A stretch of DNA of 64,000 nucleotides from Candidatus Pacearchaeota archaeon UBA73 (GCA_002496015.1 DAIF01000014.1:891-64890); one strand, 5' to 3'; shown: positions 8,515 through 62,580, numbered from the stretch's first letter. Made by a program: numbers and translations. Notes: generated from the letters alone by a model not told the origin.

Positions 8515-8648
8515 AGCTCTGTCCGAAGTTTTGATTTTTTCTAAAATTTGGATGGTGGGGGTGGAGTGGCTGCGAGTCGGGTTTTTCCTCGTAGAGGAAA
8601 TGTTAGTGGGGATTTGAAAAATCAAAACATACTAACTACGGACAGAGC
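8515..8648. mobile_element. MITE-like repeat, family A copy 1 (about 134 bp), with terminal inverted repeats AGCTCTGTCCG.../...CGGACAGAGC
   Basis: It is about 90% identical to 14698-14883 apart from an internal indel. The ends are inverted repeats, each containing TTTTGATTTTT / AAAAATCAAAA. Confidence 0.7.
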
Positions 8649-8652
8649 CCGC

Positions 8653-10569
8653 TCACTCCATCGGCGTCCCGCCAACCCGCGACCGCCCCGACATCTGCCC
8701 GCCCAATTCCTTTGGCATCCCGCTGAATCCTCCACCATACATAGAGAAATGCTGCTCGGGCAGCATCGTGCCATATCCATAAAAATAACCGCCGGAAGTC
8801 GCATACGCCTGATTCCAATACGGAGACATCTTCATCGAATATATCGGGCTGCCGAAAGATTTCAATGACTGCGCAAAAGGCGTTTGATTCCCAAAAGCCT
8901 GCGGTCCAAACCAATTTCCAGTTTCAATAATCTGCTTTATTTCTCCCATTCGTTTATTGTATTTCGCAATCGCTTCGTATTGTTTCTTCATATTAACATT
9001 TCCCATCCCCATAGGCAGCTCTGTATGTTCCATTCCAAAGTTATCAGAAAGATGTATCTTGTTCACAAACTTCCCGACCGTCTCCGCTTCCTTAGCCAAT
9101 TGCTCGTCTTCATATCCAAATTTACGAAGCATATTTATATGCCCCACATCCCACGTGACGCCAATCAGTTTCTCGGCTTGCCTTTTCGCATCACCCTCGG
9201 ACAAGTGTTCTTCCTTCATCAATTTCTCCTGTAGCTTCTTCTGTGATTTCTCGACAATCTCTCTCAAATCTTCCGCCCTGGCCAATCCGCTCCCCGCAGG
9301 AGGATTCTCAACACTGACAATCGGAGCAGAATCCTTAAATTTTTTATAAGAATTAAACGCAACATTCGCAAAAGTTTCCGAAGACTTTTCTATTCCAAAG
9401 TTCCTCAACGGAGTTAGCGTGCTGGGAGCATCAATTGATCTCAAGACATTAACCCCTTTAACCAAAGTATCTGACAGATTAGCAAGATTGACAGGATCCT
9501 CAATATTCGGAACAAGATTTTTTATTTCGTGCTTGAATTTCTTAAGTTTATCCAGGTCATCTTCTCGCCCGCTCTTCTCGGCAGCAATATAAGCTTGATT
9601 ATATAATCTCTGAAACGCCTGATAAGCATCCCTCAGATAAATATCCCCGTGCGCGAGTTCTTGCAACTGTTTCTCTACAACGAGCTTAAACGGCGCGCCA
9701 ACCGCCTCCAGCACCTTCTGCACATCCCGCCCCTTAAGATAATTTTTATACAACTCAAGCCACTGTTCTTCATTTGTATTCTCTTTCAGCCCCCTATCAA
9801 GCTTCTCTCCTTTAAGCACGCCACTCACTATTGATTGTCCTTGGTACGCATGAAAGGCACAGTTCTGCAACTGGTTAAACCATGTATCCTTGTTTTGCTT
9901 CTCAATCGCCGCCTTTATCGTGTCCCTCTGTTGATCAATACTACCAATCTTGCCATTGCTCTCCATTAAAAGATTCGGCGTCAGAGGCAAAGATTGGAAT
10001 TGGCCGTCATTTGAAACAACCCAAAATTCTTTAATTATTTCCTTCTTCTCCTTTTTCCCGGTCTCAGGATTCACAACCTCATCCAGAATTTTTGTTTCAG
10101 GATTCGGCAAGCCATTGCTTGAATGAAATGTCACAACAAGATTTCCCTTCGGATCCATCTTGTGCGCTCGCTCAACTGCCTGCCACATCTGCCTTTCTGA
10201 TTCTTCCCTATGGGCTTCGTTCCAACCCTGTCTCGTAACTCCGGTTGGCTCAACCAGTGGCCCGTGAAAAGTCAAATCAATCCCAACTAATTTTTTCAAT
10301 CGATGTATCTCTTCCAGATGCGGATCGGGAACGGTCTCCCAAGTCGCAGCAGTAACGCCGGAAACTTCAATTGTTTTAGCCCCAGTATTCAATTTGTCAG
10401 AAATGGCTTTTAGCTGATTAGCCGTTCGAGGATCCGACGGCAACCCGAAGTTCGAAGTCGAAACCCTGTACTGCGGAAACAACCCCGTAGAAAACTCGCT
10501 GGCATAATCCGGATTCAACCCATAATCCGCTCCAGCATAAAATGTATTTCCGTAACCATCTTTTCCCAT
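8653..10569 (-). CDS. Large hypothetical protein: xylose-isomerase/AP-endonuclease-2-like TIM barrel split by a helical insertion of about 280 aa, with a G/Y/S/M-rich C-terminal tail
   Basis: The N-terminal part (TIEVSGVTAATW...LTFHGPL...VVTFHSSNG) and the distal part (VTWDVGHINM...KIHLSDNFGMEHTELPMGMGNVN) together resemble one TIM barrel. The middle is coiled-coil-like, and the final 80 aa is low-complexity GGYFYGYG...GGGFSG. Confidence 0.45.
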   Translation of the reverse strand: MGKDGYGNTFYAGADYGLNPDYASEFSTGLFPQYRVSTSNFGLPSDPRTANQLKAISDKLNTGAKTIEVSGVTAATWETVPDPHLEEIHRLKKLVGIDLTFHGPLVEPTGVTRQGWNEAHREESERQMWQAVERAHKMDPKGNLVVTFHSSNGLPNPETKILDEVVNPETGKKEKKEIIKEFWVVSNDGQFQSLPLTPNLLMESNGKIGSIDQQRDTIKAAIEKQNKDTWFNQLQNCAFHAYQGQSIVSGVLKGEKLDRGLKENTNEEQWLELYKNYLKGRDVQKVLEAVGAPFKLVVEKQLQELAHGDIYLRDAYQAFQRLYNQAYIAAEKSGREDDLDKLKKFKHEIKNLVPNIEDPVNLANLSDTLVKGVNVLRSIDAPSTLTPLRNFGIEKSSETFANVAFNSYKKFKDSAPIVSVENPPAGSGLARAEDLREIVEKSQKKLQEKLMKEEHLSEGDAKRQAEKLIGVTWDVGHINMLRKFGYEDEQLAKEAETVGKFVNKIHLSDNFGMEHTELPMGMGNVNMKKQYEAIAKYNKRMGEIKQIIETGNWFGPQAFGNQTPFAQSLKSFGSPIYSMKMSPYWNQAYATSGGYFYGYGTMLPEQHFSMYGGGFSGMPKELGGQMSGRSRVGGTPME

Positions 10570-10641
10570 TCATAAAATAAGAAAAACCTTTATTTAAAGT
10601 CTGCGATAAATAAGTTCTGTTGAAGAATCAGAAACAAACAG

Positions 10642-11145
10642 TTAAATTTCCCAAGCATATCTCTTCGTCTTCCTGTGCCCGTCGGCAGATTCCATTCCGG
10701 TAGAATATTTCTTCTCGTCTTCCTGTCTCAACGAAGATTCTATCCGATTTGCCTCAGGATAACCGTTGGCTTGCGCACCCGTCGCAAAATCTCTTCCTAC
10801 TCCAACCGAACGAAGAGTCTGACCAGATTCGATATTCTCTGAGAGTTTATATTTCGGTCTGTTAGCATCATCCCCCATCCTTCTGCCAACATCATAAAGA
10901 TGAGCCGTAGGCGCTTCAGTTGTTGCCTCTTCGCGGGACGTTCTTCTAACAGGCACATCCGCAACAGCCCTCATTGGTCTGATGCCGTTTTCCACGGGTT
11001 GAAACCCTGTTCCCGCAGAGACCATCTCTGCTGCAGACTCGCTCTTAGTCAGCTCGCGGATTTCCTTGTCACCTTCAGATTCTCGCTTTATCTCTCGGAT
11101 TATCTTAACCTTATCCTTAATCTCCTTTATCTTCACATTTTTCAT
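10642..11145 (-). CDS. Hypothetical protein, charged and probably disordered
   Basis: A 167-aa ORF rich in E/K/R with no motif. It lies in the same orientation between two large unknown genes. Confidence 0.3.
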   Translation of the reverse strand: MKNVKIKEIKDKVKIIREIKRESEGDKEIRELTKSESAAEMVSAGTGFQPVENGIRPMRAVADVPVRRTSREEATTEAPTAHLYDVGRRMGDDANRPKYKLSENIESGQTLRSVGVGRDFATGAQANGYPEANRIESSLRQEDEKKYSTGMESADGHRKTKRYAWEI

Positions 11146-12726: not shown

Positions 12727-12799
12727 TTCATTTCACCTCTTTAGATTATATTTTATAAAATACACATCGAAAGTTAATAAAGATTTCGCGTCAAGTGCC

Positions 12800-12915
12800 C
12801 TGTCCAAAGTCTGTTGATTTTTCCAAACTTTGGGGGGATGGAGGGATGGTCGGGGCGAGCATGTTACGCGCCAGTAATGCAAAAGAATCTAGGCGCGTGG
12901 CTGCAAGCAGAGATT
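12800..12915. repeat. Partial or degenerate copy of the family A MITE-like repeat
   Basis: CCTGTCCAAAGTCTGTTGATTTTTCCAAACTTTGGGGGGATGGAGGGATGGTCGGGGCGAGC aligns with the 5' half of copies 8515-8648 and 14698-14883. Confidence 0.5.
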
Positions 12916-13235
12916 CGACGAAAATCGAAAATTGCAAGAAGAAATAAAGCTTACTTAAACTCAAAAGAGATTTACAAATACTTTGGTGATTAGTACAATT
13001 CAGCACTAAACCCCCCCACAAATATCAAACAACAGGTTAAAAATGCCTTCGTTTCTATAATTGAATCTAAATTCCATTTCTTTTAAGTAAAACAGATAAT
13101 TAGCCTTAGATTCCATAATCCTTATGGAATCTTTCTTTAGCATAACCCCAGAACCTTTCGATCCCATAGCAATACATTTTAGAAAATGCATGAACGTTGA
13201 TTGAACACAGATTTATAATCAATTTTCAATTCATC

Positions 13236-13724
13236 CTACCCTGGCGCTGGCGTACCCCCCGGTGGTGCATATTGAGTGCAATCAATTGTCACTGGAGGAC
13301 AAACCGCTCGTTCACCAGCATCACCCGTCACAATACCTGCAACACTAACTCTTCGAGGTGTCCCTGTCCCTGTCACCGTCCCTTCAAAGGTAACTGTTCC
13401 CAATGATGGACCAGCCGACTCTTCCATACTAGCAACACTAGCACCTGCCTCATTAACAACATCTGCAACTATAGACTGTGCTTCCCCACGCATATTTCTA
13501 ACTCGTACAGTCACGCTATCTGGAGACCCTACAGTCCAGATACAAGAAACTGGCTGAACATCAACACTAAAGCACTTCGTCCTCAAGTTAGTCTCCGAAG
13601 CAGCAGTATCAAAAGTAGGTCTCAAGAAACCCCAAACAATAGCAACAGCAGCAAGCGCTAAAAGCACTATAAGCACCGTAGCGACAATGTTACTCAATCC
13701 TCTTTTGTTTTTTCTTGTTATCAT
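13236..13724 (-). CDS. Class III signal peptide (archaeal type IV pilin-like) protein, paralog 2
   Basis: The N-terminus KNKRGLSNIVATVLIVLLALAAVAIVWGF is a basic stretch plus G plus a hydrophobic helix, as in prepilin-peptidase substrates. An SD-like GAGGT lies 6 nt upstream. It starts 10 nt after paralog 1. Confidence 0.7.
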   Translation of the reverse strand: MITRKNKRGLSNIVATVLIVLLALAAVAIVWGFLRPTFDTAASETNLRTKCFSVDVQPVSCIWTVGSPDSVTVRVRNMRGEAQSIVADVVNEAGASVASMEESAGPSLGTVTFEGTVTGTGTPRRVSVAGIVTGDAGERAVCPPVTIDCTQYAPPGGTPAPG

Positions 13725-13734
13725 TTTTTACCTC

Positions 13735-14193
13735 TTAATTGCAAGCCACCGCCACAGACTCTGGGCAAGTCTCTGTATTACCACTACCATCTCTAACCCT
13801 TGCAGCTACTCTTGCTATAAAGGGCGAAGCCGTCCCTATATCATTAACCTGAGTAGCCTGAGACCCTAGAGCTGTCGTTGGAGCAATTCCTTGAGAAACA
13901 TAAGTAATCCCATTATCATCTTCCACTACAGCAGCCACAGAATCCAAGGTAACCTCTGTAGGTACACTCGTCTTTAACTGATAAGCAACATTAGCAGTTG
14001 CTCCAGAAAGACTACACTGTGTTGGCTCAACAGTAACCAAGAAACATGCATTCCTCAATGAAGTTTGGGAAGCGGCATTATCAAAAGTAGGTCTCAAGAA
14101 ACCCCAAACAATAGCAACAGCAGCAAGCGCCAAAAGCACTATAAGCACCGTAGCGACGATGTCACTCAATCCTCTTTTGTTCATCATGTCCAT
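13735..14193 (-). CDS. Class III signal peptide (archaeal type IV pilin-like) protein, paralog 1
   Basis: Its N-terminus NKRGLSDIVATVLIVLLALAAVAIVWGF is nearly identical to paralog 2 at nucleotide level over about 110 nt. The C-terminal domain is unrelated. A TTTATAA element lies about 20 nt upstream of the start. Confidence 0.7.
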   Translation of the reverse strand: MDMMNKRGLSDIVATVLIVLLALAAVAIVWGFLRPTFDNAASQTSLRNACFLVTVEPTQCSLSGATANVAYQLKTSVPTEVTLDSVAAVVEDDNGITYVSQGIAPTTALGSQATQVNDIGTASPFIARVAARVRDGSGNTETCPESVAVACN

Positions 14194-14217: not shown

Positions 14218-14264
14218 TGTTTCGTTTTTTCAATTTTGAAAAATTACATTCGATTAAATTTTAT

Positions 14265-14345
14265 TTTTCGACGACGACTTTCACCACCCGCCCCGCCCCC
14301 AATCCCCTCCTCTTTTAATCTCCTCGCTCCTCGTCGCCAATCTCT
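14265..14345. repeat. Fragment of the repeat family G-rich core, reverse orientation
   Basis: The reverse complement GGGGATTGGGGGCGGGGCGGGTGG matches the GGGGCGGGATGATTGGGGTGG core found at 62465 and 41445. Confidence 0.35.
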
Positions 14346-14410
14346 TAACTTCCCATACCTTAAAGCTCAAGTTAGATTAACAAATCTCCAAATCTAAGAT
14401 TCATATATCT

Positions 14411-15023
14411 CTAAAGCTCCCGCTCTAAATTAATTATCTCCGTCGTACTCCAAGTCCTGATCGCTCCTTGTTTCTTGAAATGTTCATCATCTGACCAAAT
14501 ACCATCGTTGGGAACAGAAAGAGCCAGCGCAACAAAAGGGACATCTTTCTCATCTACTTCCCCAATTATCTCTTCAGCTTCTTCCATTTTATGAGCATAC
14601 TTCTCTCTGTGAACAACTTCAATACTCTCTATCAATAAACCAAACAATGTCTCAAACTCCTCCTACGTCAATCCGGCTCTTTCAATTATTATTTTTCAGC
14701 TCTGTCCAGAGTTTTGATTTTTTCTAAAATTTGGATGGTGGGGCGGGTTAGCAAGGGCGAGCACGTTACGCGAGTGCAAAAGTTGATTAATTTCGAGCGT
14801 GGCTGCGAGCAGGGTTTTTCCTCGTAGAGGAAATGTTAGTGGGGATTTGAAAAATCAAAACATACTAACTCCGAAACAGAGCTGTTTTTTCATATTTTCT
14901 AATTTCAGAGATAAGTGTTTCAGGAGCATAAAGAATAAATGGCGAGTCAATAAGAAAATTTCGGGTCAGACCTTCCTTAAACATCCCTGAAAAGACAACA
15001 TTAGTATCAATGATAAAAATCAT
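14411..15023 (-). pseudogene. PIN-domain (VapC-like) toxin gene disrupted by a MITE insertion
   Basis: The N-terminal fragment (minus strand from 15023) reads MIFIIDTNVVFSGMFKEGLTRNFLIDSPFILYAPETLISEIRKYEKT and runs into the repeat, where it meets a stop. The C-terminal fragment (14647-14411) EEFETLFGLLIE...VPFVALALSVPNDGIWSDDEHF continues the alignment with the intact paralog at 15626-16033. Confidence 0.7.
14698..14883. mobile_element. MITE-like repeat, family A copy 2 (about 186 bp), inserted inside the PIN gene
   Basis: Its termini AGCTCTGTCC...GAAACAGAGCT are inverted repeats. The internal sequence matches 8515-8648 and 12800-12915, and the interrupted host ORF is visible on both flanks. 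Confidence 0.75.
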
Positions 15024-15035
15024 TTTCTATGATTC

Positions 15036-15254: not shown

Positions 15255-15434
15255 ATAATCACACCATTTAATTTTTTCCTTCTCCCGTTAAATATCATAA
15301 ACGACAAACATAATTATCTCAAACCGCAGTTAATTCTATGAATAAAAAGTCCATCAAAACTAACAAAGAACTGCAAGAAAAGGCAGATATTCTCAAATAA
15401 GAAACCTTAAATATCTCAAACGATAACCAATCCT

Positions 15435-16033: not shown

Positions 16034-16037
16034 AAAA

Positions 16038-21272: not shown

Positions 21273-21346
21273 AAAATCACCAAGAAAAGGAGTTATTTAA
21301 TCCTTACCACAGCAATCTTTATATAGAAACGCAGAGAAAATAAACA

Positions 21347-25606: not shown

Positions 25607-25665
25607 GTTTAAAAATTTAACCATTATCGGGTTTTGTTGAAAAAGTTCGAACTGCACAGAAAAAA
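25607..25665. repeat. Minimal palindromic family B element (about 50 bp)
   Basis: TTGTTGAAAAAGTTCGAACTGCACAG...AAAAATTTCAACAAG. The 5' arm matches the family B 5' consensus (GCTCTGTTGAAAAAGTAGGAACTGCAGG) and the 3' arm is its inverted repeat. Confidence 0.45.
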
Positions 25666-25721
25666 TTTCAACAAGTCGAAATCAGCTAAATCTTTAAATA
25701 ACTTAATAACAATAAAGATTA

Positions 25722-33226: not shown

Positions 33227-33340
33227 TAATCCAAAGCTCTGTTGAAAAAGTCTGAAACTCGCGTGGCAACAAGCGAGCGCAGCGAGCCGCTATTACCAAA
33301 ACGCCGGCCGCCAAGTCGGGCGTCCAATTTATCTAGACGC
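33227..33340. repeat. Family B MITE-like repeat copy
   Basis: It starts AAGCTCTGTTGAAAAAGTCTGAAACTCGCG, and this 5' portion (about 30 nt) is shared with copies at 41407 and 61721. Confidence 0.55.
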
Positions 33341-33447
33341 GCGCTTCCGACCAATTAAAAAATAGAACTATATTTACAATCTGAAGAGGTTCCCCTAGTT
33401 AATACTAATAAAGGTAAATTTATAAATTTGCATTTTTTCTTTAATAA

Positions 33448-39758: not shown

Positions 39759-39975
39759 TGTTTTGTTTGGTTGGGTTGTTGAAATCTTTCTTGCGCAGTT
39801 TCAGATTCCCACTTTGGATTTCTCTTACAAAGAAAAACTCTCTTAATCCCCTCTCCCTAGATTTAAGTAAAACAAACTCCGGACAGAGCCTTCTAATACA
39901 AAAGTTTAAATCTTTTGAGACATGAGTTATCACGAAGAGGGCATACGAAACGTTTAAAAAAAGTCGGTTCGTAAG

Positions 39976-41406: not shown

Positions 41407-41565
41407 AGCTCTGTTGAAAAAGTAGGAACTGCAGGTTTATTAAAATTTGGGGCGAAGGGATTAGGAGGGACAGGGAGGGTTTTCGACTTGAGCAATACGA
41501 AAGTCGAATCCAAAGTGGGAATCTGAAACCTGCGCAAGAGAGATTTTCAACAGAACCCGCTGAAT
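41407..41565. mobile_element. Family B MITE-like repeat, complete copy with TIRs (GCTCTGTTGAAAA ... TTTTCAACAGAAC)
   Basis: The 5' end AAGCTCTGTTGAAAAAGTAGGAACTGCAGG is followed by the internal core AAAATTTGGGGCGAAGGGATTAGGAGGGACAGGGAGGGTTTTCGAC, which matches 62462-62510. The 3' end is an inverted copy. Confidence 0.65.
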
Positions 41566-47066: not shown

Positions 47067-47465
47067 ATGGAAATATTTTGTCAAAGATGGTACGGGGATG
47101 GAAGGGAAAGATTTTCAACAGAGCCGCTTTTGAAGAAAGATTTTATAGTGATGAGAAGTGGGATTTTTATGGCAAAATCCTTGAGGCATTATCTGGAAGA
47201 AGGGACAATTGTTGGAAAATATTTTAGGATTCCTTCTGAACAAAGGCCTCTTGAGGGCGTTGGAAGTTCTGGGGTCTATCAAGTTGTAAGCATAACTAAT
47301 CAGGGTAATTTAATGGTTTGTGACGCAGGGGATTATTTATCTGAAAGATTTAGATATTTTGATCTTGAAAAATGTTTAAATGACAGAAGGGCTTCTTTTT
47401 TAGCAGCCTCTTTTGCGTCATTTCGTTTTAAGCCACAAGAACCAAAGTATATTGGCAACATTTGA
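47067..47465 (+). CDS. Hypothetical protein
   Basis: A 132-aa ORF with no motif. Confidence 0.3.
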   Translation: MEIFCQRWYGDGRERFSTEPLLKKDFIVMRSGIFMAKSLRHYLEEGTIVGKYFRIPSEQRPLEGVGSSGVYQVVSITNQGNLMVCDAGDYLSERFRYFDLEKCLNDRRASFLAASFASFRFKPQEPKYIGNI

Positions 47466-50019: not shown

Positions 50020-50315
50020 TAAATCACTTAGCTGAATATGTTTATAAAATTTTCCAGGAAGGGCTCTGTTTAAAATATCTCTGAATATCCGCCTAATAAG
50101 ATCGTTTTACTAATTTACTCTCGATAAAAACAACAACACTCAATTTTGTAAAGCTAAAAAGTTTTTTGAAGCTCCGCCTCAAGACTAGCTCTGTTCAAAG
50201 TTTGTCTATTTTACCTAATAATCCCTCTCGCGTATCCCTCCCAAATTAAATAAAGCCGACAAACTCCGGATAGAACCCAAGGTCGGAAAGATTTATAAAT
50301 AGATGTTTACCAGAA

Positions 50316-50816: not shown

Positions 50817-50843
50817 TCCGAAGTCAGTATTTTTCAACAGAGC

Positions 50844-51113
50844 TTATAACCCGTAAGATTCAGACAATATTTTTATTTTGCTATATTCTTGAAGGAACTC
50901 TTCTCCTTTTTTTGTAATTAGGAAATGCTTCTTCCCACCGATTTCAACAGATTCTATCAGTTTGTTCTTCAGCAGTTCCTCTAAGTAAGGTTTAATACTG
51001 TTGTTAGATAAATTCGCCTTGTAAATCAAGTGCGTTATTTTCGCCTGCTTACCTTTTCTTACTACTTCTAGAAGGTCTTTTATTACCTCTAATTTGGTTC
51101 TTTTCTTGGTCAT
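50844..51113 (-). CDS. Winged-helix DNA-binding protein (putative transcription regulator)
   Basis: An 89-aa ORF. ITHLIYKANLSNNSIKPYLEELLKNKLIE is a wHTH-like recognition helix plus wing. Confidence 0.4.
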   Translation of the reverse strand: MTKKRTKLEVIKDLLEVVRKGKQAKITHLIYKANLSNNSIKPYLEELLKNKLIESVEIGGKKHFLITKKGEEFLQEYSKIKILSESYGL

Positions 51114-55774: not shown

Positions 55775-55924
55775 GTGAAAATTAAGCATAAGAAGTATAT
55801 AAATCTTCGGATGCTTTCGTTTTGTCCGAAGCTGATTTTATGATTCCACAGACTTCGAATGCAACAAGAACCTTATCTGTTCCTCTAGTTATAATGTTCT
55901 CAGGGCTGTGCAAATCCCTCCCCA

Positions 55925-55985
55925 AATTTAGGTAAAACCAACAGACTCCGGACAAAGCCCTCGCCCCAAACATTTTATAAACTTT
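55925..55985. repeat. Repeat family fragment, reverse orientation
   Basis: The reverse complement AAAATGTTTGGGGCGAGGGCTTTGTCCGGAGTCTGTTGGTTTTACCTAAATTTGGGG matches 62445-62490 nearly base for base. Confidence 0.6.
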
Positions 55986-56002
55986 ATCGCCTCCCCGTCA
56001 AC

Positions 56003-56413: not shown

Positions 56414-57006
56414 GAATTAAAACAATAATCTTCGACTGGGGAGGAGTTTTAATAGACAACCCTTCTGACGACCTTTTCAATTTCCTTGCGATTCAGCTTG
56501 AAACCTCAGTTGAAGAAATAAGAAAACACACAACGAATTATATAGAATCGTTTCAAAAAGGAGAAATAGAAGAAAGAAAAATATTCGAAAAATTCCTTAA
56601 ATCCCCCTTGGAAAAAAGTATGTGGAAAAAAGCAGTTCAGACAACATTCAAAAACCGCCCCGCGATGTGGGAACTAGTCTCAGATCTCAGAAAAAAAGGT
56701 TTCAAAACTGCTCTGCTTTCAAACACAGAAAACCCTACAGTAGAACATTTCATCGAACAACAATACGACAAATATTTCGACACAATGATTTTCTCCTGCC
56801 ACGAAGGCATAACAAAACCCTCTCCTGAAATATATAAAATAGCCCTAGAAAAAACGAACTCTCTCCCTAAAGAAACCATCTTCATCGACGACCTGAAAGA
56901 AAACACTGACGCAGCCGAAAAACTCGGCATGAAAACCGTTCTCTTCACTTCTGAACAGGAATGCATCGATTCCCTCAACAGAATTCTAAAAAATCAAAAC
57001 CCTTAA
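56410..57006 (+). CDS. HAD-superfamily hydrolase (subfamily IA)
   Basis: Motif I IIFDWGGVL, S/T motif II and a K...DD motif (FIDDLKEN). Confidence 0.75.
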   Translation: MRIKTIIFDWGGVLIDNPSDDLFNFLAIQLETSVEEIRKHTTNYIESFQKGEIEERKIFEKFLKSPLEKSMWKKAVQTTFKNRPAMWELVSDLRKKGFKTALLSNTENPTVEHFIEQQYDKYFDTMIFSCHEGITKPSPEIYKIALEKTNSLPKETIFIDDLKENTDAAEKLGMKTVLFTSEQECIDSLNRILKNQNP

Positions 57007-57030
57007 AACTTCCTTCTCCCAGTTAATCAT

Positions 57031-58428
57031 ATGACAAACACCCACATCATAGAAAAAAAAGGCAAGATGCTCGTTCCCGGAGTAGTCTTCGCCTCCCCGG
57101 AATTATTCGAAAAAATCTCGCAGGATAAAACTCTCGAGCAAGTAAAAAACGTAGCCTGCCTTCCGGGAATCGTAGAAAAATCTATCGCAATGCCCGACGC
57201 TCACCAAGGTTACGGCTTCCCGGTCGGAGGCGTTGCAGCCTTCGATATCAAAGAAGGAATAATCTCTCCAGGCGGGATAGGTTATGATATAAATTGTGGC
57301 GTCCGCCTCCTTCGCACAAATCTCGACAAAAAAGAATTCCTCAAAAAAAGAACTTTCATCCTTAAAGAACTCGACGACAACATTCCAAGTGGAGTAGGCC
57401 GCGGCTCAGAGTTAAAACTTTCAGAAAAAGACCTTAATGATATCCTACTCGAGGGCGCCAACTGGTGTCTCGAAAAAGGGTATGCAACAGAAGAAGATAT
57501 CTCTCACACTGAAGATTCCGGATGTATAAAAAACGCCAATCCAAAAAAAGTTTCTCAAAAAGCAAAAGCGAGAGGGAAATCACAACTAGGAACGCTCGGC
57601 GCAGGCAACCACTTCCTCGAAATCCAGTTCGTAGAAGATATCAAAAACGAAAATGTTGCAAAAACGTTCGGGCTCAAAAAAGACCAAATCGTAATCCTAA
57701 TTCATACCGGCTCCCGCGGCTTAGGTCATCAGACTGCCTCAGATTATATCCAAAAAATGGAACGCCTTTACGGGTACGAACATCTGCCAGACAGAGAACT
57801 CGCCTGCGCACCACTCGAATCCGAGCTAGGTAAAGAATACCTCGAAGCAATGGCTGCCGTCGCGAACTTCGCCTTTGCAAATCGTCAAATCATAACTCAC
57901 AACGTCAGACAATCTTTCAAAAAATATTTTGAAAAAATAAAAATCGAAGTCCTCTACGACGTAGCGCACAATATCGCAAAATTTGAAGAATTCGAAATCG
58001 AAGGAAAAAAACAAACGTTCTGCGTCCACAGAAAAGGCGCAACCCGCTCATTCGGTCCCGGAAGAAAAGAACTTCCTGAAGATTATCAAGAAGTAGGTCA
58101 ACCAATTTTAATCCCTGGCTCGATGGGAACATCCTCTTACGTTTTATCCGGAACAAAAGAAGCGGAAAAAATTTCATTTGCTTCAACTGCCCACGGCGCC
58201 GGCCGCGTCCTCTCGCGAACAAAAGCAAAACAATCCATTATCCCAGAACAAGTCAGAAACCAACTAAAACAGAATAACATTGAAATCCGCGCCGGCTCCC
58301 AAAAAGGTCTCGTCGAAGAAGCCCCGCAGGCTTACAAGGACGTAGATGAAGTCGTAAAAGTTTCAGACGAATTAGGCATTGGAAAAATCGTAGCCAAACT
58401 CAAACCTCTTGCGGTTATCAAAGGATGA
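57031..58428 (+). CDS. rtcB: RNA-splicing ligase RtcB
   Basis: GYDINCGVRLL, GAGNHFLE, and His-rich metal sites (VAHNI, HRKGA). Confidence 0.9.
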   Translation: MTNTHIIEKKGKMLVPGVVFASPELFEKISQDKTLEQVKNVACLPGIVEKSIAMPDAHQGYGFPVGGVAAFDIKEGIISPGGIGYDINCGVRLLRTNLDKKEFLKKRTFILKELDDNIPSGVGRGSELKLSEKDLNDILLEGANWCLEKGYATEEDISHTEDSGCIKNANPKKVSQKAKARGKSQLGTLGAGNHFLEIQFVEDIKNENVAKTFGLKKDQIVILIHTGSRGLGHQTASDYIQKMERLYGYEHLPDRELACAPLESELGKEYLEAMAAVANFAFANRQIITHNVRQSFKKYFEKIKIEVLYDVAHNIAKFEEFEIEGKKQTFCVHRKGATRSFGPGRKELPEDYQEVGQPILIPGSMGTSSYVLSGTKEAEKISFASTAHGAGRVLSRTKAKQSIIPEQVRNQLKQNNIEIRAGSQKGLVEEAPQAYKDVDEVVKVSDELGIGKIVAKLKPLAVIKG

Positions 58429-58512
58429 ATCACCCAAAAAATAATGAGGAAGCAAGAAATTCTGTAACTATGAAAGGCGCGTTTCTAGCGCAAATCACGA
58501 AGACAAAAAGGG

Positions 58513-59124
58513 CTAACCTTCCAATAACACTGAAATTTCTTCCCAAGTATAAACTCTTCTGACTCCTTCAGGCATAATTTCCAAAGGTCCTAATTGATTC
58601 CAAAGATGCATTCCATTGTAATCATAAAGCAGAACCTGTGTTCTGGGCGAAGCCGTTCTAATTTCCCGAGCGTGTTCCAAAGAATCTTCTACCATATAAT
58701 CAACACCAATATCTCTACACAAAGTTCCTTTCGTTCTGCCATGCCTGATTTTCGTGTCAAAACTTTGTCCAGTCAGATAGAGTTCTGAAAAAACTTCTGG
58801 GAAAGTTCGTTCAATACTTTGCAAGGTCGTATCTCGCAAATTTACCGGTCTGGAACTAATTGCAACAATATTGTAAATTTCAGCAAGTCTCTGAAGAACT
58901 TCCCTCGCGCCAGGCATCGGCTGCAACGAAATTAAATTTGTAGTGTTAAACTCTTCAAACCTCTTTTGTAACTCGTCGGCAGAACAACCTATCAACCCAG
59001 GGAGGTCATAACGAACAACATCCGCTCGACTTAATGTCGTGCCATGCCTCTTGTTATGCCATTCAAAAAAAGGACCAATTAAATCAAAACTTGTCTCATC
59101 TAAATCAACTCCTATTATTCCCAT
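58513..59124 (-). CDS. HAD-like 5'(3')-deoxyribonucleotidase-family protein
   Basis: DxDxT motif IGVDLDET and the NT5C-like size of about 200 aa. Confidence 0.5.
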   Translation of the reverse strand: MGIIGVDLDETSFDLIGPFFEWHNKRHGTTLSRADVVRYDLPGLIGCSADELQKRFEEFNTTNLISLQPMPGAREVLQRLAEIYNIVAISSRPVNLRDTTLQSIERTFPEVFSELYLTGQSFDTKIRHGRTKGTLCRDIGVDYMVEDSLEHAREIRTASPRTQVLLYDYNGMHLWNQLGPLEIMPEGVRRVYTWEEISVLLEG

Positions 59125-59215
59125 AAACTGAGTCTATAAAGATCCTTTATAACTATTTATATTCAAAACAACAATTTTAAAAACATACAATTACTTATTA
59201 ACATAAGTAAGCGAC

Positions 59216-59986
59216 ATGAAACCTAAAGTTATCATCTTTGAAGATGCTCAGGAAATTTCTAAATACGCAGTAGAACTAATCAAAAATGAGCTCGATAAAA
59301 AATCAAATCTCGTTCTTGGACTTCCGACCGGCAAGACCGTTATCCCGATTTACAGTGAACTTGTCAAAGCCCACGAAGAAAAAATGGTGAATCTCTCCAA
59401 AACGAAAGTTTTCGACCTCGACGAATACATAGGACTAAAACCTGAGCAAAAAGAAAGCTTTGAATACTTCCTGAATAAAAATCTGTTCACTCGGATAAAA
59501 ATCCCTGAAAAAAACCTGAACTTCATCAAAGGCACAGCAATAAACCTGACAAAAGAATGTGAAGAATATGAACAGAAAATAAAAAAAGCCGGCGGAATAG
59601 ATTTAATGATTCTTGGCATTGGCGCCAACGGCCACATCGCGTTCAACGAACCTGGCTCTCCGTTCGACAGCAGAACTCGTGAAATTATACTTACATACAG
59701 CACCAAAGCAGCCAACTTCGGCAAGATTTATTCTCTCATCAAAGCGCCAAAACGCGCCCTCACCATCGGCATCGCAACAATTATTGAATCAAAAAAGATA
59801 ATACTTATCGCAACAGGAAAACGCAAAGCTAAAGCAGTCAAAGAGACGTTAGAATCCCCTCCAAACACAAAATGCCCCGCTTCAGCCCTCCAAAATCACT
59901 CAGACGTTACGATTCTGCTGGACAAAGCCGCCGCAAACTTACTAAAGGAAAAAAAAGATGGTATCCCTAAACAAAATCTTAACTAA
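59216..59986 (+). CDS. nagB: Glucosamine-6-phosphate deaminase/isomerase (NagB family)
   Basis: GLPTGKT and ILGIGANGHIAFNEPGS motifs. Confidence 0.8.
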   Translation: MKPKVIIFEDAQEISKYAVELIKNELDKKSNLVLGLPTGKTVIPIYSELVKAHEEKMVNLSKTKVFDLDEYIGLKPEQKESFEYFLNKNLFTRIKIPEKNLNFIKGTAINLTKECEEYEQKIKKAGGIDLMILGIGANGHIAFNEPGSPFDSRTREIILTYSTKAANFGKIYSLIKAPKRALTIGIATIIESKKIILIATGKRKAKAVKETLESPPNTKCPASALQNHSDVTILLDKAAANLLKEKKDGIPKQNLN

Positions 59987-60710
59987 AGGCAAAGCTCTCT
60001 ACTTAGCTTACGATCAGGGCATGGAGCACGGCCCAGTTGACTTCAACGACAAAAACGTCAACCCAAACTATATAATCCAAATCGCAAAAGAAGGAAAATA
60101 CAACGCCATGATTTTCCAAAAGGGTATAGCCGAAAAATACCAAAAAGAAATCCGCGCTTCAAAAATTCCATTAATACTCAAGTTAAACGGCAAGACAAGT
60201 TTAAGAAAAGGTGAACCCATCTCGACTCAGCTATGCACCGTGCAGGAAGCCATAAATCTCGGCGCGAAAGCAGTCGGCTACACTATCTACATCGGTAGCG
60301 AGCACGAGGATATGATGTTCAAGGAATTCGAAAAAATCCAAATCAACGCCCACGCCCGCAACCTCCCGGTCATCGCCTGGATATATCCGAGAGGAAAAGG
60401 CACAGAAAAAAAATCCCACTCCGAACTTCTCGCTTACGCCTGTCGCGTCGGTCTGGAAATAGGCGCAGACATTGTCAAAGTCCATTGGGACGGTAAAAAT
60501 TCCAAAGAACTTATTTGGGCAGTCAAGGCAGCAGGAAGAACAAAAGTCGTAATTGCCGGCGGTTCTAAAAAAACAGAAACCGAACTCCTCAAAGAGACGC
60601 ATGAAGCCATGCAATCAGGTTGCATCGGTCTCGCGATAGGCAGAAACATCTGGCAATCTGAAACCCCAATAGAACTCACAAAAAAACTCAAGAAAGTTAT
60701 CTGGAACTAA
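59958..60710 (+). CDS. fba: Class I fructose-bisphosphate aldolase, archaeal DhnA/FbaB type
   Basis: ALYLAYDQGMEHGP, a Schiff-base lysine region (ADIVKVHW) and a TIM-barrel pattern. It overlaps nagB by 29 nt. Confidence 0.75.
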   Translation: MVSLNKILTKGKALYLAYDQGMEHGPVDFNDKNVNPNYIIQIAKEGKYNAMIFQKGIAEKYQKEIRASKIPLILKLNGKTSLRKGEPISTQLCTVQEAINLGAKAVGYTIYIGSEHEDMMFKEFEKIQINAHARNLPVIAWIYPRGKGTEKKSHSELLAYACRVGLEIGADIVKVHWDGKNSKELIWAVKAAGRTKVVIAGGSKKTETELLKETHEAMQSGCIGLAIGRNIWQSETPIELTKKLKKVIWN

Positions 60711-60905
60711 TCAATCAGAAAACATTCAATACCTCTTTCCAACCCTGCTTATCATCATAATTGAACTCAAACTTCTTCCCCGCAAAAACCACAATAACAT
60801 TCCTCCTACCCCAAAAATTTGCATACCACCATTTGATGCTCTCAGATAGCTTTTCAATATCTCGCTCAGAAATCAAAACCGTATAAAAGACTCCCTTGAA
60901 TTCAG

Positions 60906-61649
60906 TTATCCCTTCTTAGCCCGCAAGATTATCCCGACGACAAAAAGCACAAGCCCCAAAACGAAAAGCGAAGTAACCCCGAAAGCCGAACCCACAACCG
61001 CGGCAGTCATAGTAAAACCGGAAAGTAACATTAAAACCGCCCCAACCGCCATAAGCAACCAAACCGCCGCGACTCTCGTCTCAAGCTCGCTCAGATGTTT
61101 TCTTGCATGCTTCACCATTCTTTCTTGTCTCTCCCCAACCCTTCCCCTAATAGTCTTATACTCGTGCTCATTAAGAATCCCCTCTTCATATGCGTCCTCT
61201 ATGACTCGCCCATACTTTCTGTCTAACTCCATCAGCTTAGACCCTGCCGCAACAAGATACGCTCCAATGCTCGGGTTCTTGCCTTCAGCCAACCGCTCCG
61301 CACTATACGCCAAAGTTGTACCTATAACATCCTCTGGAACACCATCCTCCTTCAGCTGATTATAAAACATCACTGCATTTCTTTCATGAAGTATCCGCAG
61401 CATCGGCTCCTTGGCTTCATCGGGCACCCTTGAAAGAGAATGCCTCACCACTTGCTTATAGCTGTGGGGGTCAACAGGTTCGACAACCCCCAACCTTTCC
61501 CTCTTTATCAACAGCTCGTTCATAATGCCCTCTCCTCCGGGGACTGTTGTCATACATCCCATTATCCTCAAGATCCTCCGAACTCGCGACCCTAAGATGA
61601 GGAACATCCTCACTTCCCGGACCACGACGTCCTCTTCTCGAGCCCGCAC
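60906..61649 (-). CDS. Hypothetical membrane protein with a C-terminal two-TM anchor
   Basis: A soluble helical N-domain followed by VAAVWLLMAVGAVLMLL and LFVLGLVLFVVGIIL. The start may be the internal MNELLIK. Confidence 0.35.
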   Translation of the reverse strand: MRAREEDVVVREVRMFLILGSRVRRILRIMGCMTTVPGGEGIMNELLIKRERLGVVEPVDPHSYKQVVRHSLSRVPDEAKEPMLRILHERNAVMFYNQLKEDGVPEDVIGTTLAYSAERLAEGKNPSIGAYLVAAGSKLMELDRKYGRVIEDAYEEGILNEHEYKTIRGRVGERQERMVKHARKHLSELETRVAAVWLLMAVGAVLMLLSGFTMTAAVVGSAFGVTSLFVLGLVLFVVGIILRAKKG

Positions 61650-61720
61650 CTTCTTTTACACTAGGCATAGCTTTAATAATCAAACCTCGTTTAAATATTT
61701 ATCCATAAAAAAGCTCTGTT

Positions 61721-61800
61721 GAAAAAATCGGAAATACGCAGCCCAATCTGGATGTGGTCGGGGCGCTGAAAAGTGGGGCGCAAAAAGATTTTAAGAGCCA
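61721..61800. repeat. Family B MITE-like repeat copy (5' portion)
   Basis: AAGCTCTGTTGAAAAAATCGGAAATACGCAG... shares the 5' module with 33227 and 41407. Confidence 0.5.
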
Positions 61801-62465
61801 ATAAAAAGAGCATGATAATCATAAACTTCAAAAATTACGTTGCAGGGAAAAAATCCCTCGCTCTCGCAAAACTTATTGAAAAGCATTTCTCAAGGGCAAT
61901 CATCGCAGTTCCCGCGGTAGACATAAAAGAACTCCATGAAAAAACAAAACTCCGCATATTTGCCCAACACTTAGATGCAATTGACGGTCGCGCGACCGGC
62001 TTCCTCCTGCCTGAAACCGCAAGAGCTGTCGGAGCTTCCGGCACACTTCTAAACCATTCAGAACACCCACTGCCCTTCAGGATTCTAAAAACCGCGGTCT
62101 CAAGAACGCACAAAGCCGGACTAAAGATTGTAATCTGCGCACCTTCAATAAAAGAAGCAAAAAAACTCGCATCCCTCAAACCGGAAGCCATCGCATTTGA
62201 AGACCCAAAACTCATCGGCTCCGGCAAATCAATAACTGAATACCGCGCTGACGAAGTAAAAAAATTCGCCCAACTTTTCCGGCACTCAAAAATCGTCCCA
62301 CTATGCGGCGCAGGCATTAATAAAATTGAAGACGTCAAAGCTGCACACGACTTGGGCTGTCACGGCGTCTTGATCGCAAGCGCAATCGCCGCAGCTCCGC
62401 CAAAAAAAACAAAAGATTTTTTGAGAGAACTCGGGCTTTGTCCGGAGTCTGTTGGTTTTACCTAA
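61773..62465 (+). CDS. tpiA: Triosephosphate isomerase (archaeal short type)
   Basis: IIINFKNY start, catalytic His in LLNHSEH, catalytic Glu in AFEDPKLIGSG, and GAGI near the C-terminus. Confidence 0.9.
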   Translation: MGRKKILRANKKSMIIINFKNYVAGKKSLALAKLIEKHFSRAIIAVPAVDIKELHEKTKLRIFAQHLDAIDGRATGFLLPETARAVGASGTLLNHSEHPLPFRILKTAVSRTHKAGLKIVICAPSIKEAKKLASLKPEAIAFEDPKLIGSGKSITEYRADEVKKFAQLFRHSKIVPLCGAGINKIEDVKAAHDLGCHGVLIASAIAAAPPKKTKDFLRELGLCPESVGFT

Positions 62466-62580
62466 ATTTGGGGCGGGATGATTGGGGTGGACAGGGTGGG
62501 ATTCGACGACAGTCGAAGTCTGTGGGAATCGTAAAATCAACCGAAAAATCAACTCCGGACAAAGCCAGAACTCGCTAAAA
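62440..62580. repeat. Composite copy of the repeat family (GGCTTTGTCCGGAGTCTGTTGG... core plus GTCTGTGGGAATCGTAAAATCAA module)
   Basis: It contains modules that recur at 55925-55985 (reverse complement), 41445-41510, 6480-6510 (reverse complement) and 39875-39900. Confidence 0.6.

What the first reader, a model, noticed from the sequence alone, without database searches (positions are those of the whole stretch)
8515..62580. A family of short MITE-like intergenic repeats with terminal inverted repeats, at least 10 copies
Two related modules recur almost exclusively in intergenic DNA. Family A has ends AGCTCTGTCCGAAGTTTTGATTTTTT...AAAAATCAAAAC...CGGACAGAGC; its copies are 8515-8648, 12800-12915 (partial) and 14698-14883. 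Family B has ends AAGCTCTGTTGAAAAAGT.. / ..TTTTCAACAGAGC; its copies are 33227-33340, 41407-41565, 61721-61800, a solo end at 50815-50845, a 50-bp mini-copy at 25607-25665 and a degenerate copy at 50155-50290. Both share an internal core AAATTTGGGGCG(A/G)GG...GGACAGGG...CGAC, seen at 8541, 14730, 41445 and 62462, at 14265-14345 in reverse, and as reverse-complement copies at 55925-55985 and 6480-6510. Within this window the copies sit next to accessory genes (pilins, TA modules, large orphan genes), and adjacency elsewhere is unknown. Their size of 50-190 bp, the inverted-repeat ends and the lack of coding capacity fit non-autonomous transposable elements (MITEs). Alternatively they could be a dispersed structured small RNA or a regulatory motif. 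I do not recognise this family as a described one.
Basis: seen in the sequence. Interest (0 to 1): 0.72.

Follow-up and report, generated by a model that had tools for sequence, protein, structure and literature searches.

The report
IS5-type MITEs in a DPANN archaeon
The short intergenic repeats are real miniature transposons (MITEs) that have recently jumped in a small-genome Pacearchaeota-like archaeon, and one subtype carries the ends of an IS5-family insertion sequence found in a related genome; this is an ordinary kind of element in an under-studied lineage.

Summary
The window is from a DPANN (Nanoarchaeota/Pacearchaeota-like) archaeon. It carries about 15 copies or fragments of one repeat superfamily, 1,480 bp or 2.3% of the window, in intergenic DNA or overlapping only the ends of real genes or implausible mechanical ORFs. 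All copies share the tip GGCTCTGT. Type A ends are GGCTCTGTCCGGAGT. Type B ends are GGCTCTGTTGAAAAAGT on the left and GAGATTTTCAACAGAGCC on the right.

The MITE reading is supported.
- A related strain (about 91-95% nucleotide identity) has a precise empty site where the window has the 133-bp copy 62434-62566. That copy has perfect 15-bp inverted ends and an 8-bp target duplication (AGAACTCG).
- The same strain carries elements at two sites that are empty in the window.
- A more distant relative (GCA_043821585.1) holds an 873-bp insertion sequence with both type B ends and a 9-bp duplication. Its 264-aa transposase passes NCBI's IS5-family model NF033579, the model that IS903B also hits.
- The type B end matches the IS903B end at 15 of 18 bases.

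No transposase lies in the window, and no autonomous partner was found for type A. My first lead, IS6/IS26, was rejected.

A conserved G-rich core with a compensated hairpin remains unexplained.

Verdict: new member of a known kind; modest interest.

The parts
62434..62566 (+). Complete type A MITE, 133 bp. It has perfect 15-bp inverted ends (GGCTTTGTCCGGAGT / ACTCCGGACAAAGCC). It is inserted a few codons (about four) before the stop of the triosephosphate isomerase gene, so the new C-terminus and stop codon are encoded by the element.
   Evidence: (I6). It is absent from the orthologous site of L029.
62426..62433 (.). Left copy of the 8-bp target-site duplication AGAACTCG. The right copy lies at 62567-62574.
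   Evidence: L029 9722-9729 aligns to both sides of the insertion.
8515..8649 (+). Complete type A MITE, 135 bp. It is flanked by CGCTCACT (8507-8514 and 8650-8657). It sits between the stop codon of the 638-aa gene and the TATA box of the nucleotidyltransferase gene.
14698..14883 (+). Type A MITE, about 96% identical to 8515-8649 over the shared parts. It also carries a 50-bp internal GC-rich module. Its right end is slightly degenerate. It lies in an islet (14243-16038) that is absent from the related strain.
   Evidence: (D4, D11).
12796..12925 (+). Degenerate type A copy. The left end is GCCCTGTCCAAAGT. It contains the same GC-rich module as 14698-14883. No right end is present.
6480..6556 (-). 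Degenerate type A copy. It shares a 23-nt exact match with 62518-62540 and has mutated ends. The same copy is present in the related strain.
   Evidence: (I7).
55819..55959 (-). Type A copy with an intact left end, a replaced middle and a degenerate right end. It lies 14 nt upstream of the archease TATA box. An orthologous copy is present in L029 462-589.
   Evidence: (I1).
50187..50277 (-). Short 91-bp copy with A-like ends (GGTTCTATCCGGAGTTTGTC / GACAAACTTTGAACAGAGCT).
   Evidence: (D3, D10).
39770..39890 (-). Hybrid copy. It has a perfect A left end (GGCTCTGTCCGGAGT), the shared core, and a degenerate B right end (GATTTCAACAAC).
   Evidence: (D3, I9).
41407..41557 (+). Complete type B MITE, 151 bp. 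Ends are AGCTCTGTTGAAAAAGT ... AGATTTTCAACAGAACC. It is flanked by an imperfect duplication, (T/G)CTGAATA.
61712..61801 (+). Type B copy of 90 bp, with an intact left end, a short G-rich middle and a degenerate right end (GATTTTAAGAGCC). It ends about 10 nt before the ATG of the triosephosphate isomerase gene.
   Evidence: (D9).
33235..33360 (+). B left end followed by one GC-rich hairpin unit. No right end is recognisable. The orthologous site in L033 holds at least three such units.
   Evidence: (D9).
25630..25675 (+). Mini type B copy of about 46 bp (GGTTTTGTTGAAAAAGT ... AATTTCAACAAG).
47107..47125 (+). Solo B right end, AAGATTTTCAACAGAGCC, preceded by a G-rich stretch.
50062..50078 (+). 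Solo B-like end, GGCTCTGTTTAAAATAT.
50828..50844 (-). Solo B end (the plus strand reads TATTTTTCAACAGAGCT). It lies just after the stop codon of the coiled-coil gene 50316-50816.

Best explanation

**Anatomy.** Each full copy has four parts:
- An outer inverted repeat. All copies share the tip GGCTCTGT, and the next 7-10 bases define type A or type B.
- A second, inner inverted repeat.
- A shared non-coding core of roughly 70-90 nt: a TATA-like AAATTT box, a G-rich tract, a short hairpin, and GTGGGAATC.
- A duplication of 8 bp (type A) or 9 bp (type B) of target DNA on either side.

**How it moves.** The elements encode nothing. A DDE transposase supplied in trans binds the two ends, cuts the element out (or copies it), and joins it into a staggered cut in the target. 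Repair of the stagger creates the duplication.

**The helper for type B.** It is an IS5-family transposase of the NF033579 branch, the branch that contains IS903B and the haloarchaeal ISHvo2. An 873-bp insertion sequence in a related genome carries both type B ends, in their distinct left and right versions, plus a 9-bp duplication.

**The helper for type A.** Type A is most likely moved by a second, related transposase that was not seen. Less likely, the type B enzyme moves it, since the first 8 bases are identical.

**Shown versus inferred.**
- Shown: inverted ends, duplications, empty and filled sites between strains, the insertion sequence with matching ends, and its IS5-family transposase.
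- Inferred: that this or a similar transposase is present in the window's own genome, that it acts in trans on the MITEs, and the cut-and-paste chemistry (by analogy with IS903).

**Hybrids.** A/B hybrids, and copies at the same site with different contents in two strains, are best explained by recombination or gene conversion between copies through the shared core.
For: **1. Copy number above chance.** 7 matches against 0.32 expected, and 8 against 0.11.

**2. Precise empty site.** The window reads GAGAGAACTCG[GGCTTTGTCCGGAGT...ACTCCGGACAAAGCC]AGAACTCGCTAAAATATAA. L029 reads GAGAGAACTCGCTAAAATATAA. The flanks are 80% and 96% identical.

**3. Reciprocal polymorphism.** L031 carries elements at sites that are empty in the window, at about 21299-21311 and about 3284-3299.

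**4. Duplications flank other copies.**
- 8515-8649: CGCTCACT
- L029 18945-19131: CTATTGCTG
- L031 2802-3074: CTTACCACA or longer

**5. Autonomous element.** L037:2048-2920 reads GGCTCTGTTGAAAATCT...ACTTTTTCAACAGAGCC, with the duplication GATCACCTC. Its 264-aa protein gives these results:
- 149.1 bits on NF033579, 'IS5 family transposase' (cut-off 140).
- A match to Pfam DDE_Tnp_1.
- The NCBI name 'IS5 family transposase'.
- 30% identity over 258 aa to ISHvo2.

**6. Both end versions are kept.** The MITE B left end equals the element's transposase-proximal end (...GAAAAAGTC). The MITE B right end equals its distal end (GAGATTTTC...). Each matches over 18 nt and then diverges.

**7. Resemblance to IS903B.** IS903B ends are GGCTTTGTTGAATAAATC(G/A) with a 9-bp direct repeat (PMC10569121), checked on plasmid Rts1. 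They match the B end at 15 of 18 bases. The IS903B transposase hits the same NCBIfam model.

**8. Assemblies break in the repeats.** Two independent assemblies do so.

**9. No coding capacity and no transposase in the window.**
Against: - No transposase is present in the 64-kb window or in about 48 kb of the closest related strain.
- The only matching insertion sequence is in a genome about 71% identical at the nucleotide level. That genome has no MITE copies in the 22 kb seen.
- No autonomous element with type A ends was found.
- Duplication length is not uniform. It is 8 for A and 9 for B. One element has up to 13 bp of flanking repeat, and several old copies have none.
- Two orthologous sites hold elements with different interiors or one different end in the two strains. 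Simple insertion does not explain this.
- The core is not derived from the insertion sequence, and it keeps a hairpin through compensatory changes. This suggests some constraint beyond transposase binding.
Confidence: 0.85

Rival explanations
1. The elements are primarily genes for a small structured RNA, or a regulatory DNA motif, held in place by selection. On this view the inverted ends are RNA stems rather than transposase sites.
For: - Full copies fold into long hairpins with z-scores of -2.5 to -5.5.
- The outer stem co-varies between types A and B.
- The internal hairpin is kept in 8 of 10 copies with three compensated stems: TTCGAC/GTCGAA, TTCCTC/GAGGAA and TTCTCC/GGAGAA. The single-sided changes seen in three copies are G.U-compatible on the G-rich strand only, which folds better in those copies.
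- A TATA-like box (TTTAYTAAAATTT) lies upstream of the G-rich tract (read from the sequence).
Against: - There are precise empty sites with target duplications, and filled/empty differences in both directions.
- An insertion sequence with identical ends encodes a transposase.
- Many copies are truncated, hybrid or solo ends.
- No Rfam family matches, even at E up to 1.
- Co-variation of inverted ends is expected for any transposon, because both ends bind the same protein.
- Both strands fold about equally well for the whole element.
Confidence: 0.05
2. The elements are MITEs of the IS6/IS26 family. That family has ends GGTTCTGTTGCAAA, an 8-bp duplication and a replicative cointegrate mechanism.
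For: - The type B end GGCTCTGTTGAAAA matches the published IS6/IS26 consensus GGTTCTGTTGCAAA at 12 of 14 positions, including G1, G2, G7 and G10 (PMC6807381; PMC7986276).
- Type A makes an 8-bp duplication.
- IS6 elements are common in archaea.
Against: - The only element found with these exact ends encodes an IS5-family DDE_Tnp_1 transposase, not an IS6 (DDE_Tnp_IS240) one.
- Type B and that element make 9-bp duplications.
- The match to IS903B ends is better and longer, 15 of 18.
- Harmer and Hall note that the conserved IS6 end bases also occur in other IS families.
Confidence: 0.03
3. The copies spread or are replaced mainly by recombination at the conserved tips or the shared core, rather than by transposition. 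This could be site-specific recombination or gene conversion between dispersed copies.
For: - At the site of window 8515-8649, the related strain has an element with a 70%-similar A left end, an array of hairpin units and a B right end, between the same flanks.
- The copy at 39770-39890 and its orthologue in L033 share the right part and differ in the left part.
- A/B hybrids exist.
- The hairpin-unit number differs between strains.
Against: - Recombination does not create new target-site duplications or fill previously empty sites.
- No recombinase was seen next to any copy.
- Gene conversion between MITE copies is a known secondary process and fits as an add-on to transposition.
Confidence: 0.05

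Closest known systems
IS903 / IS903B and other NF033579-type IS5-family insertion sequences (for example the haloarchaeal ISHvo2), together with their MITE derivatives
   Same: - The ends begin with GGC. The type B end matches the IS903B end at 15 of 18 bases (GGCTCTGTTGAAAAAGTC against GGCTTTGTTGAATAAATC).
- The target duplication is 9 bp.
- The partner insertion sequence in L037 encodes a single DDE_Tnp_1 transposase. It passes the same NCBIfam model as IS903B and ISHvo2.
   Different: - The transposase is only 23% identical to IS903B over 90 aa, and 30% identical to ISHvo2.
- The insertion sequence is shorter: 873 bp and 264 aa, against 1,057 bp and 322 aa.
- The host is a DPANN archaeon.
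- Type A ends diverge after base 8 and make an 8-bp duplication.
- The MITE core is unrelated to the interior of the insertion sequence.
Classical prokaryotic MITEs, such as Neisseria Correia elements, enterobacterial ERIC/IRU, pneumococcal RUP, and archaeal MITEs of Sulfolobus and haloarchaea (named from general knowledge)
   Same: - Size of 45-190 bp, with inverted ends and target duplications.
- Intergenic location close to promoters and stop codons.
- Many degenerate copies and variation between strains.
- A long-hairpin fold.
   Different: - Two end types share one core.
- There is an internally compensated hairpin and a G-rich tract.
- Some copies carry arrays of GC-rich hairpin units.
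- The density in this window, about 230 copies or fragments per Mb if extrapolated, exceeds the highest archaeal densities in a published census (105-146 per Mb, PMC11602168). That figure comes from a single window.
IS6/IS26 family ends
   Same: GG tip, the cTGTt motif and an A-run; an 8-bp duplication for type A.
   Different: The cognate transposase found is IS5-type. Type B makes a 9-bp duplication. See the rival explanation.

Membership tests
MITE (non-autonomous DNA transposon) | Small size and no coding capacity | tested here: met
   Copies are 46-186 bp. They overlap only spurious mechanical ORFs, and those ORFs have no Pfam hits.
MITE (non-autonomous DNA transposon) | Terminal inverted repeats | tested here: met
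   62434-62566 has 15 of 15 complementary bases. 8515-8649 has 13 of 14. 41407-41557 has 13-nt ends with one mismatch.
MITE (non-autonomous DNA transposon) | Target-site duplication flanking the element | tested here: met
   An 8-bp duplication was verified against an empty site. Duplications of 8-9 bp occur at three further copies. Old copies lack them.
MITE (non-autonomous DNA transposon) | Multiple dispersed copies | tested here: met
   About 15 copies or fragments in 64 kb. There are more in L029, L030, L031 and L033.
MITE (non-autonomous DNA transposon) | Insertion polymorphism between related genomes | tested here: met
   One site is filled in the window and empty in the relative. Two sites show the reverse.
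MITE (non-autonomous DNA transposon) | An autonomous element with the same ends exists | tested here: inconclusive
   Met for type B, but in a genome only about 71% identical (L037:2048-2920). Not found for type A. Not found in the window or in the closest strain. The rest of the source genome could not be searched.
IS5 family (NF033579 branch, IS903-like) | The cognate transposase is an IS5-family DDE enzyme | tested here: met
   NF033579 scores 149.1 bits against a cut-off of 140, with E = 1.8e-43. PF01609 DDE_Tnp_1 gives E = 1.1e-13. This applies to the L037 insertion sequence, not to a gene in the window.
IS5 family (NF033579 branch, IS903-like) | Ends begin with GGC and resemble the IS903 inverted repeats | tested here: met
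   15 of 18 bases are identical to the IS903B ends (PMC10569121). The IS903B sequence was checked in L050.
IS5 family (NF033579 branch, IS903-like) | 9-bp target duplication | tested here: inconclusive
   9 bp for the L037 insertion sequence and for the type B copy in L029. 8 bp for type A. One type B copy has up to 13 bp.
IS5 family (NF033579 branch, IS903-like) | The transposase binds and moves these ends | not testable with these tools
   This needs biochemistry or genetics.
IS6/IS26 family | IS6-type transposase (DDE_Tnp_IS240) bounded by the ends | tested here: not met
   The element with identical ends encodes an IS5-type enzyme. No IS6 transposase was seen in any locus.
IS6/IS26 family | 14-bp end consensus GGTTCTGTTGCAAA and an 8-bp duplication | tested here: inconclusive
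   Type B matches at 12 of 14 positions but has a 9-bp duplication. Type A has an 8-bp duplication but matches at only 8 of 14.
Known structured RNA family (Rfam) | Match to a curated covariance model | tested here: not met
   Only four tRNAs reach gathering score in the window. With the permissive E-value threshold applied to two copies, the only result is a 16-bit chance hit to a plant miRNA hairpin.

The most novel reading that the evidence does not exclude
The shared core of roughly 70-90 nt is not inert filler. It may be a functional passenger that the MITE spreads next to genes in a very compact DPANN genome.

The core consists of a TATA-like box, a tract of four or more G-runs that could form a G-quadruplex, a hairpin kept through compensatory changes with G.U-type wobbles only on the G-rich strand, and the conserved GTGGGAATC.

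It could act as a portable promoter, as a small structured RNA, or as a DNA or RNA structure that affects neighbouring gene expression.

The same core sits inside two different sets of transposon ends, and the hairpin-unit arrays vary in number between strains. Both would then reflect selection on the cargo.
Probability: 0.15. Interest if true: 0.55.

Novelty: new member of a known kind. Interest (0 to 1): 0.3.

Why it matters
- **Activity in a small genome.** DPANN archaea have small, streamlined genomes and are known almost only from metagenomes. This window shows that one such lineage carries an active, dense MITE population, with copies gained and lost between strains about 91-95% identical.
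- **Effects on genes.** Insertions sit exactly at stop codons and promoter edges. One insertion rewrote the C-terminus of triosephosphate isomerase.
- **Assembly fragmentation.** Two independent assemblies break exactly in these repeats. That is a practical reason why such genomes assemble poorly.
- **A testable pair.** Linking type B to an IS5-family element gives a transposase and substrate pair for an uncultured archaeal group.
- **No new biology required.** None of this needs a new kind of element or mechanism.

Tried and rejected
1. **Genome and metagenome scans.** Exact 20-mer scans of the GTDB species genomes and the JGI metagenomes gave 15 and 11 single hits. None extended beyond the pattern. 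All are chance, so the family is absent from those collections or too divergent for those exact 20-mers.
2. **Viral contig scans.** The B end gave 10 chance hits in coding DNA with no inverted partner. The A end gave none.
3. **IS6/IS26 lead.** It came from memory and was supported at first by published consensus ends. It was dropped when the matching element proved to be IS5-type.
4. **Rfam.** Nothing.
5. **Transposase remnants.** tblastn of the L037 transposase against the window and ten related loci found none.
6. **Relatives at 70-80% nucleotide identity.** L028, L032, L034, L035, L036, L051 and L052 hold no family copies. L030 has a few B-like copies.
7. **Ends of ISHvo2 and of a Methanomethylovorans IS5 element.** They could not be defined with simple inverted-repeat searches. 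Subgroup placement within IS5 therefore rests on the NCBIfam model and the IS903B comparison only.
8. **Tandem Repeats Finder.** It does not detect the hairpin-unit arrays of about 60-70 nt, because the units are too divergent.
9. **The left junction of the composite insertion in L031 17486-17765.** It does not give a clean duplication. It was not used as evidence for duplication length.
10. **Supplementary MITE lists of the 2024 census.** They are not held. A full-text search for the end sequences found no paper.

Full report
**What the window is.** The gene content is archaeal:
- CDC48
- archease with RtcB
- archaeal-type PheRS alpha and beta
- a short triosephosphate isomerase
- pyruvoyl arginine decarboxylase
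- four tRNAs

The closest homologues of three proteins are named Nanoarchaeota, Candidatus Pacearchaeota or Woesearchaeota archaeon by their sources. G+C is 41%. The source is therefore a DPANN archaeon of the Pacearchaeota type.

- The type B end GCTCTGTTGAAAA (up to 1 mismatch) occurs 7 times against 0.32 expected. The type A end GCTCTGTCCGGAGT (up to 2 mismatches) occurs 8 times against 0.11 expected. No shuffle reaches either count.
- A profile built from aligned copies recovers eight copies at E values from 4e-27 to 0.004.
- Motif searches add short copies and solo ends.
- In total I count about 15 copies or fragments, 1,480 bp or 2.3% of the window. The window is about 87% coding by a crude ORF measure.
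- Where copies overlap a mechanical ORF, it is either the last codons or first bases of a real gene (TIM) or an ORF with no family match. In some cases the homologues of that ORF in relatives are shorter.
One item (14265-14345) is not supported. Three copies were missed: 39770-39890, 47107-47125 and 50062-50078.

**Anatomy.** Aligned full copies show these parts, from the outside in:
- An outer inverted repeat whose first eight bases, GGCTCTGT, are common to all copies.
- A type-specific continuation. Type A reads CCGGAGT(C/T)TGTTG(G/A)TTTTA. Type B reads TGAAAAAGT on the left and GAGATTTTCA on the right.
- In type B, a second inner inverted repeat, CTGCAGGTTT / AAACCTGCGC.
- A core of roughly 70-90 nt shared by both types:
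  - (T)TTAC(C/T)TAAA(A)TTTGGGG
  - a tract of G-runs
  - a 6-8-bp hairpin
  - (AATCC)AAAGTGGGAATC

Some copies carry an extra GC-rich module, GGGCGAGCACGTTACGCG...CGCGTGGCTGCGAGCA (12796-12925, 14698-14883, L029 18945-19131). Hybrids with an A left end and a B right end exist (39770-39890; L031 11922-12290). Whole elements fold into long hairpins on either strand, with z-scores of -2.5 to -5.5.

**Evidence for mobility.** Proteins flanking the repeats led to contigs of a closely related strain from a biogas-fermenter metagenome (ENA ERZ925065; L029, L031, L033). Mean nucleotide identity to the window over long alignments is 91-95%.

Site 1: filled in the window, empty in the relative.
- Between the TIM and LOG-family genes the relative reads GAGAGAACTCGCTAAAATATAA.
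- The window reads GAGAGAACTCG-[133-bp element]-AGAACTCGCTAAAATATAA.
- The two BLAST segments overlap by exactly the eight bases AGAACTCG.
- This is a textbook filled and empty pair: a perfect 15-bp inverted repeat and an 8-bp target duplication.
- The insertion lies inside the last codons of TIM. The window protein ends ...RELGLCPESVGFT* instead of ...RELAKI*. The NCBI protein is 217 aa against 210 aa in all relatives.

Sites 2 and 3: filled in the relative, empty in the window.
- At window position about 21299-21311, between the divergent GluRS and IMPDH promoters, L031 has a 273-bp type B composite flanked by CTTACCACA. Up to 13 bp of flanking repeat are shared.
- At window position about 3284-3299, L031 has a type B copy joined to a partial type A copy.

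Other copies.
- Copies at 6480-6556, 55819-55959 and 33235-33360 are shared by both strains. These are the degenerate ones, as expected for older insertions.
- Assemblies break in the repeats. The Logan contig of the same organism is identical to the window from 55931 to 62462, both positions inside copies. The L033 contig ends within the element near 39890.

**The helper element.** Neither the window nor the related-strain contigs encode a transposase. A more distant relative does. This is NCBI MAG GCA_043821585.1, locus L037. Its CDC48 is 88% identical at the protein level, and the DNA is about 71% identical.
- L037:2048-2920 is an 873-bp element.
- Its ends are GGCTCTGTTGAAAATCT ... ACTTTTTCAACAGAGCC, with 16 bases perfectly complementary.
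- It is flanked by the 9-bp duplication GATCACCTC.
- It encodes one 264-aa protein. That protein scores 149.1 bits (E = 1.8e-43) on NCBIfam NF033579, 'IS5 family transposase', above the curated cut-off of 140.
- The protein also matches Pfam DDE_Tnp_1. NCBI names it an IS5 family transposase.

Read in the direction of the transposase gene, the left end of the element is GGCTCTGTTGAAAAAGTC and its right end is GAGATTTTCAACAGAGCC. [quoted passage not shown] The similarity stops after 18 nt on each side. Type B is therefore the non-autonomous partner of this lineage of insertion sequences. The core is foreign to the element and is not a deletion remnant.

**Which family?** My first lead, from memory, was IS6/IS26.
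- The literature gives its end consensus as GGTTCTGTTGCAAA with 8-bp duplications (PMC6807381, PMC7986276).
- Type B matches that consensus at 12 of 14 positions.
- The transposase result overrules the lead.
- The better comparison is IS903B of the IS5 family. Its ends are GGCTTTGTTGAATAAATC(G/A) and its direct repeat is 9 bp (PMC10569121). I checked this on plasmid Rts1.
- IS903B matches the B end at 15 of 18 bases and makes the same 9-bp duplication.
- IS903B, the haloarchaeal ISHvo2 and a Methanomethylovorans element all hit the same NCBIfam model, at 356, 229 and 234 bits.
- The L037 protein is 30% identical to ISHvo2 over 258 aa, but only 23% identical over 90 aa to IS903B.
- In a tblastn search of plasmid records, the best 25 matches listed are all archaeal IS5 elements. 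Acinetobacter and Roseomonas records also appear among the 180 matching records.

Membership of the IS5 family is therefore tested and met for the partner of type B. Placement next to IS903 rests on the ends, the duplication length and the shared model, not on close protein similarity.

Type A shares only the 8-base tip and makes an 8-bp duplication. Its helper was not found. From memory, ISfinder lists an ISH1 subgroup of IS5 with 8-bp repeats. That is a lead, not a test.

**Distribution.**
- Family copies occur in the window strain, in the biogas strain (about a dozen in 48 kb) and, as B-like copies, in L030 (about 76% nucleotide identity).
- None occur in seven other related loci at 70-80% identity.
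- Exact-pattern scans of species genomes, JGI metagenomes and viral contigs returned only chance hits.
- No paper in the held library contains the end sequences.
- A 2024 census reported high MITE densities in DPANN genomes, including a Woesearchaeon at 105 per Mb (PMC11602168). MITE-rich DPANN genomes are therefore known in general.

**What remains unexplained.**
1. The same core sits inside two different sets of ends.
2. The inner hairpin is kept in 8 of 10 copies through paired changes: TTCGAC/GTCGAA, TTCCTC/GAGGAA and TTCTCC/GGAGAA. Three copies carry single-sided changes that are wobble-compatible only on the G-rich strand. That strand folds 1.8-6 kcal/mol better than its complement in those copies.
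3. Some B-ended elements contain arrays of hairpin units of about 60-70 nt whose stems differ but stay complementary. The unit number differs between strains: one at window 33255-33335, and at least three at the same site in L033.
4. Two orthologous sites hold elements with different interiors in the two strains.

Recombination between copies through the shared core explains points 1 and 4 most simply. Points 2 and 3 leave room for a function of the cargo, which I rate at about 15%.

**Placement relative to genes.** Many copies lie 15-25 nt from an archaeal TATA-like box of a neighbouring gene, or directly at a stop codon. In intergenic spacers of 25-100 nt this may simply be where insertions are tolerated.

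**Verdict.** The elements are a previously undescribed family of an ordinary kind. They are IS5-family-type MITEs, recently active, in a Pacearchaeota-like DPANN archaeon. Interest is modest at 0.3.

Noticed in passing
window 33255-33335; L033 6380-6600; L031 11960-12230; L029 17426-17800 and 13613-13900: Arrays of hairpin units of about 60-70 nt lie inside B-ended or A-like-ended elements. Each unit reads ...GCTATTAYYAAGAC, then a 6-7-bp stem, a 13-nt loop, the returning stem, then C(A/T)ATTTAAGA. Stems differ between units but stay complementary (GACTTGC/GCAAGTC against GACGCC/GGCGTC). The number of units differs between strains at the same site. Tandem Repeats Finder does not detect them.
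   Followed up: partly
window 62370-62465 versus L029 9681-9740: The MITE insertion replaced the last residues of triosephosphate isomerase. The protein now ends ...RELGLCPESVGFT* instead of ...RELAKI*. It is 7 aa longer than every relative listed.
   Followed up: yes
L029 1659-4466 versus window 57031-58428: RtcB of the related strain is 935 aa and carries an intein with LAGLIDADG/Intein_splicing domains. The window's RtcB is 465 aa and has none. Several CDC48 homologues of about 1,220-1,260 aa also carry inteins.
   Followed up: no
window 14243-16038: This islet of about 1.8 kb is absent from the related strain (L031 joins 14243 directly to 16038). It holds a truncated PIN_2 gene (14411-14647), the MITE 14698-14883 and several small ORFs.
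   Followed up: partly
window 16038-16343 (minus strand): This ORF aligns at 91% to the 3' end of the GluRS gene of the related strain (L031 4534-4769). The window's full GluRS gene lies at 19614-21272. Between the two lie three genes, one of them glutamyl-tRNA reductase-like. This looks like a rearrangement or insertion that split or duplicated the 3' end of the gene.
   Followed up: no
window 61806-62433 versus L029 9103-9729: The TIM gene is only 80% identical between the two strains, whereas the flanking genes are 91-96% identical. The genes upstream also differ (L029 has ABC transporter genes). This suggests a recombination or replacement tract.
   Followed up: no
window 13551-13709 and 14023-14181: A 159-nt direct repeat at 85% identity lies within two adjacent small genes (13236-13724 and 13735-14193) that have no Pfam match.
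   Followed up: no
flanks of many copies, for example window 55960-55985, 50278-50300, 8490-8514, 39891-39915: A TATA-like box (TTTATAAA or TTTAAATC) lies 14-25 nt outside the element's left end in most copies. The elements are wedged between a stop codon or a divergent promoter and the next gene's promoter. This could be a target preference or could reflect selection.
   Followed up: partly
window 34375-34494 versus L033 5441-5464: The window has about 96 bp more than the related strain in the spacer between the metalloprotease gene and the next gene. The extra DNA is not a member of the MITE family.
   Followed up: no
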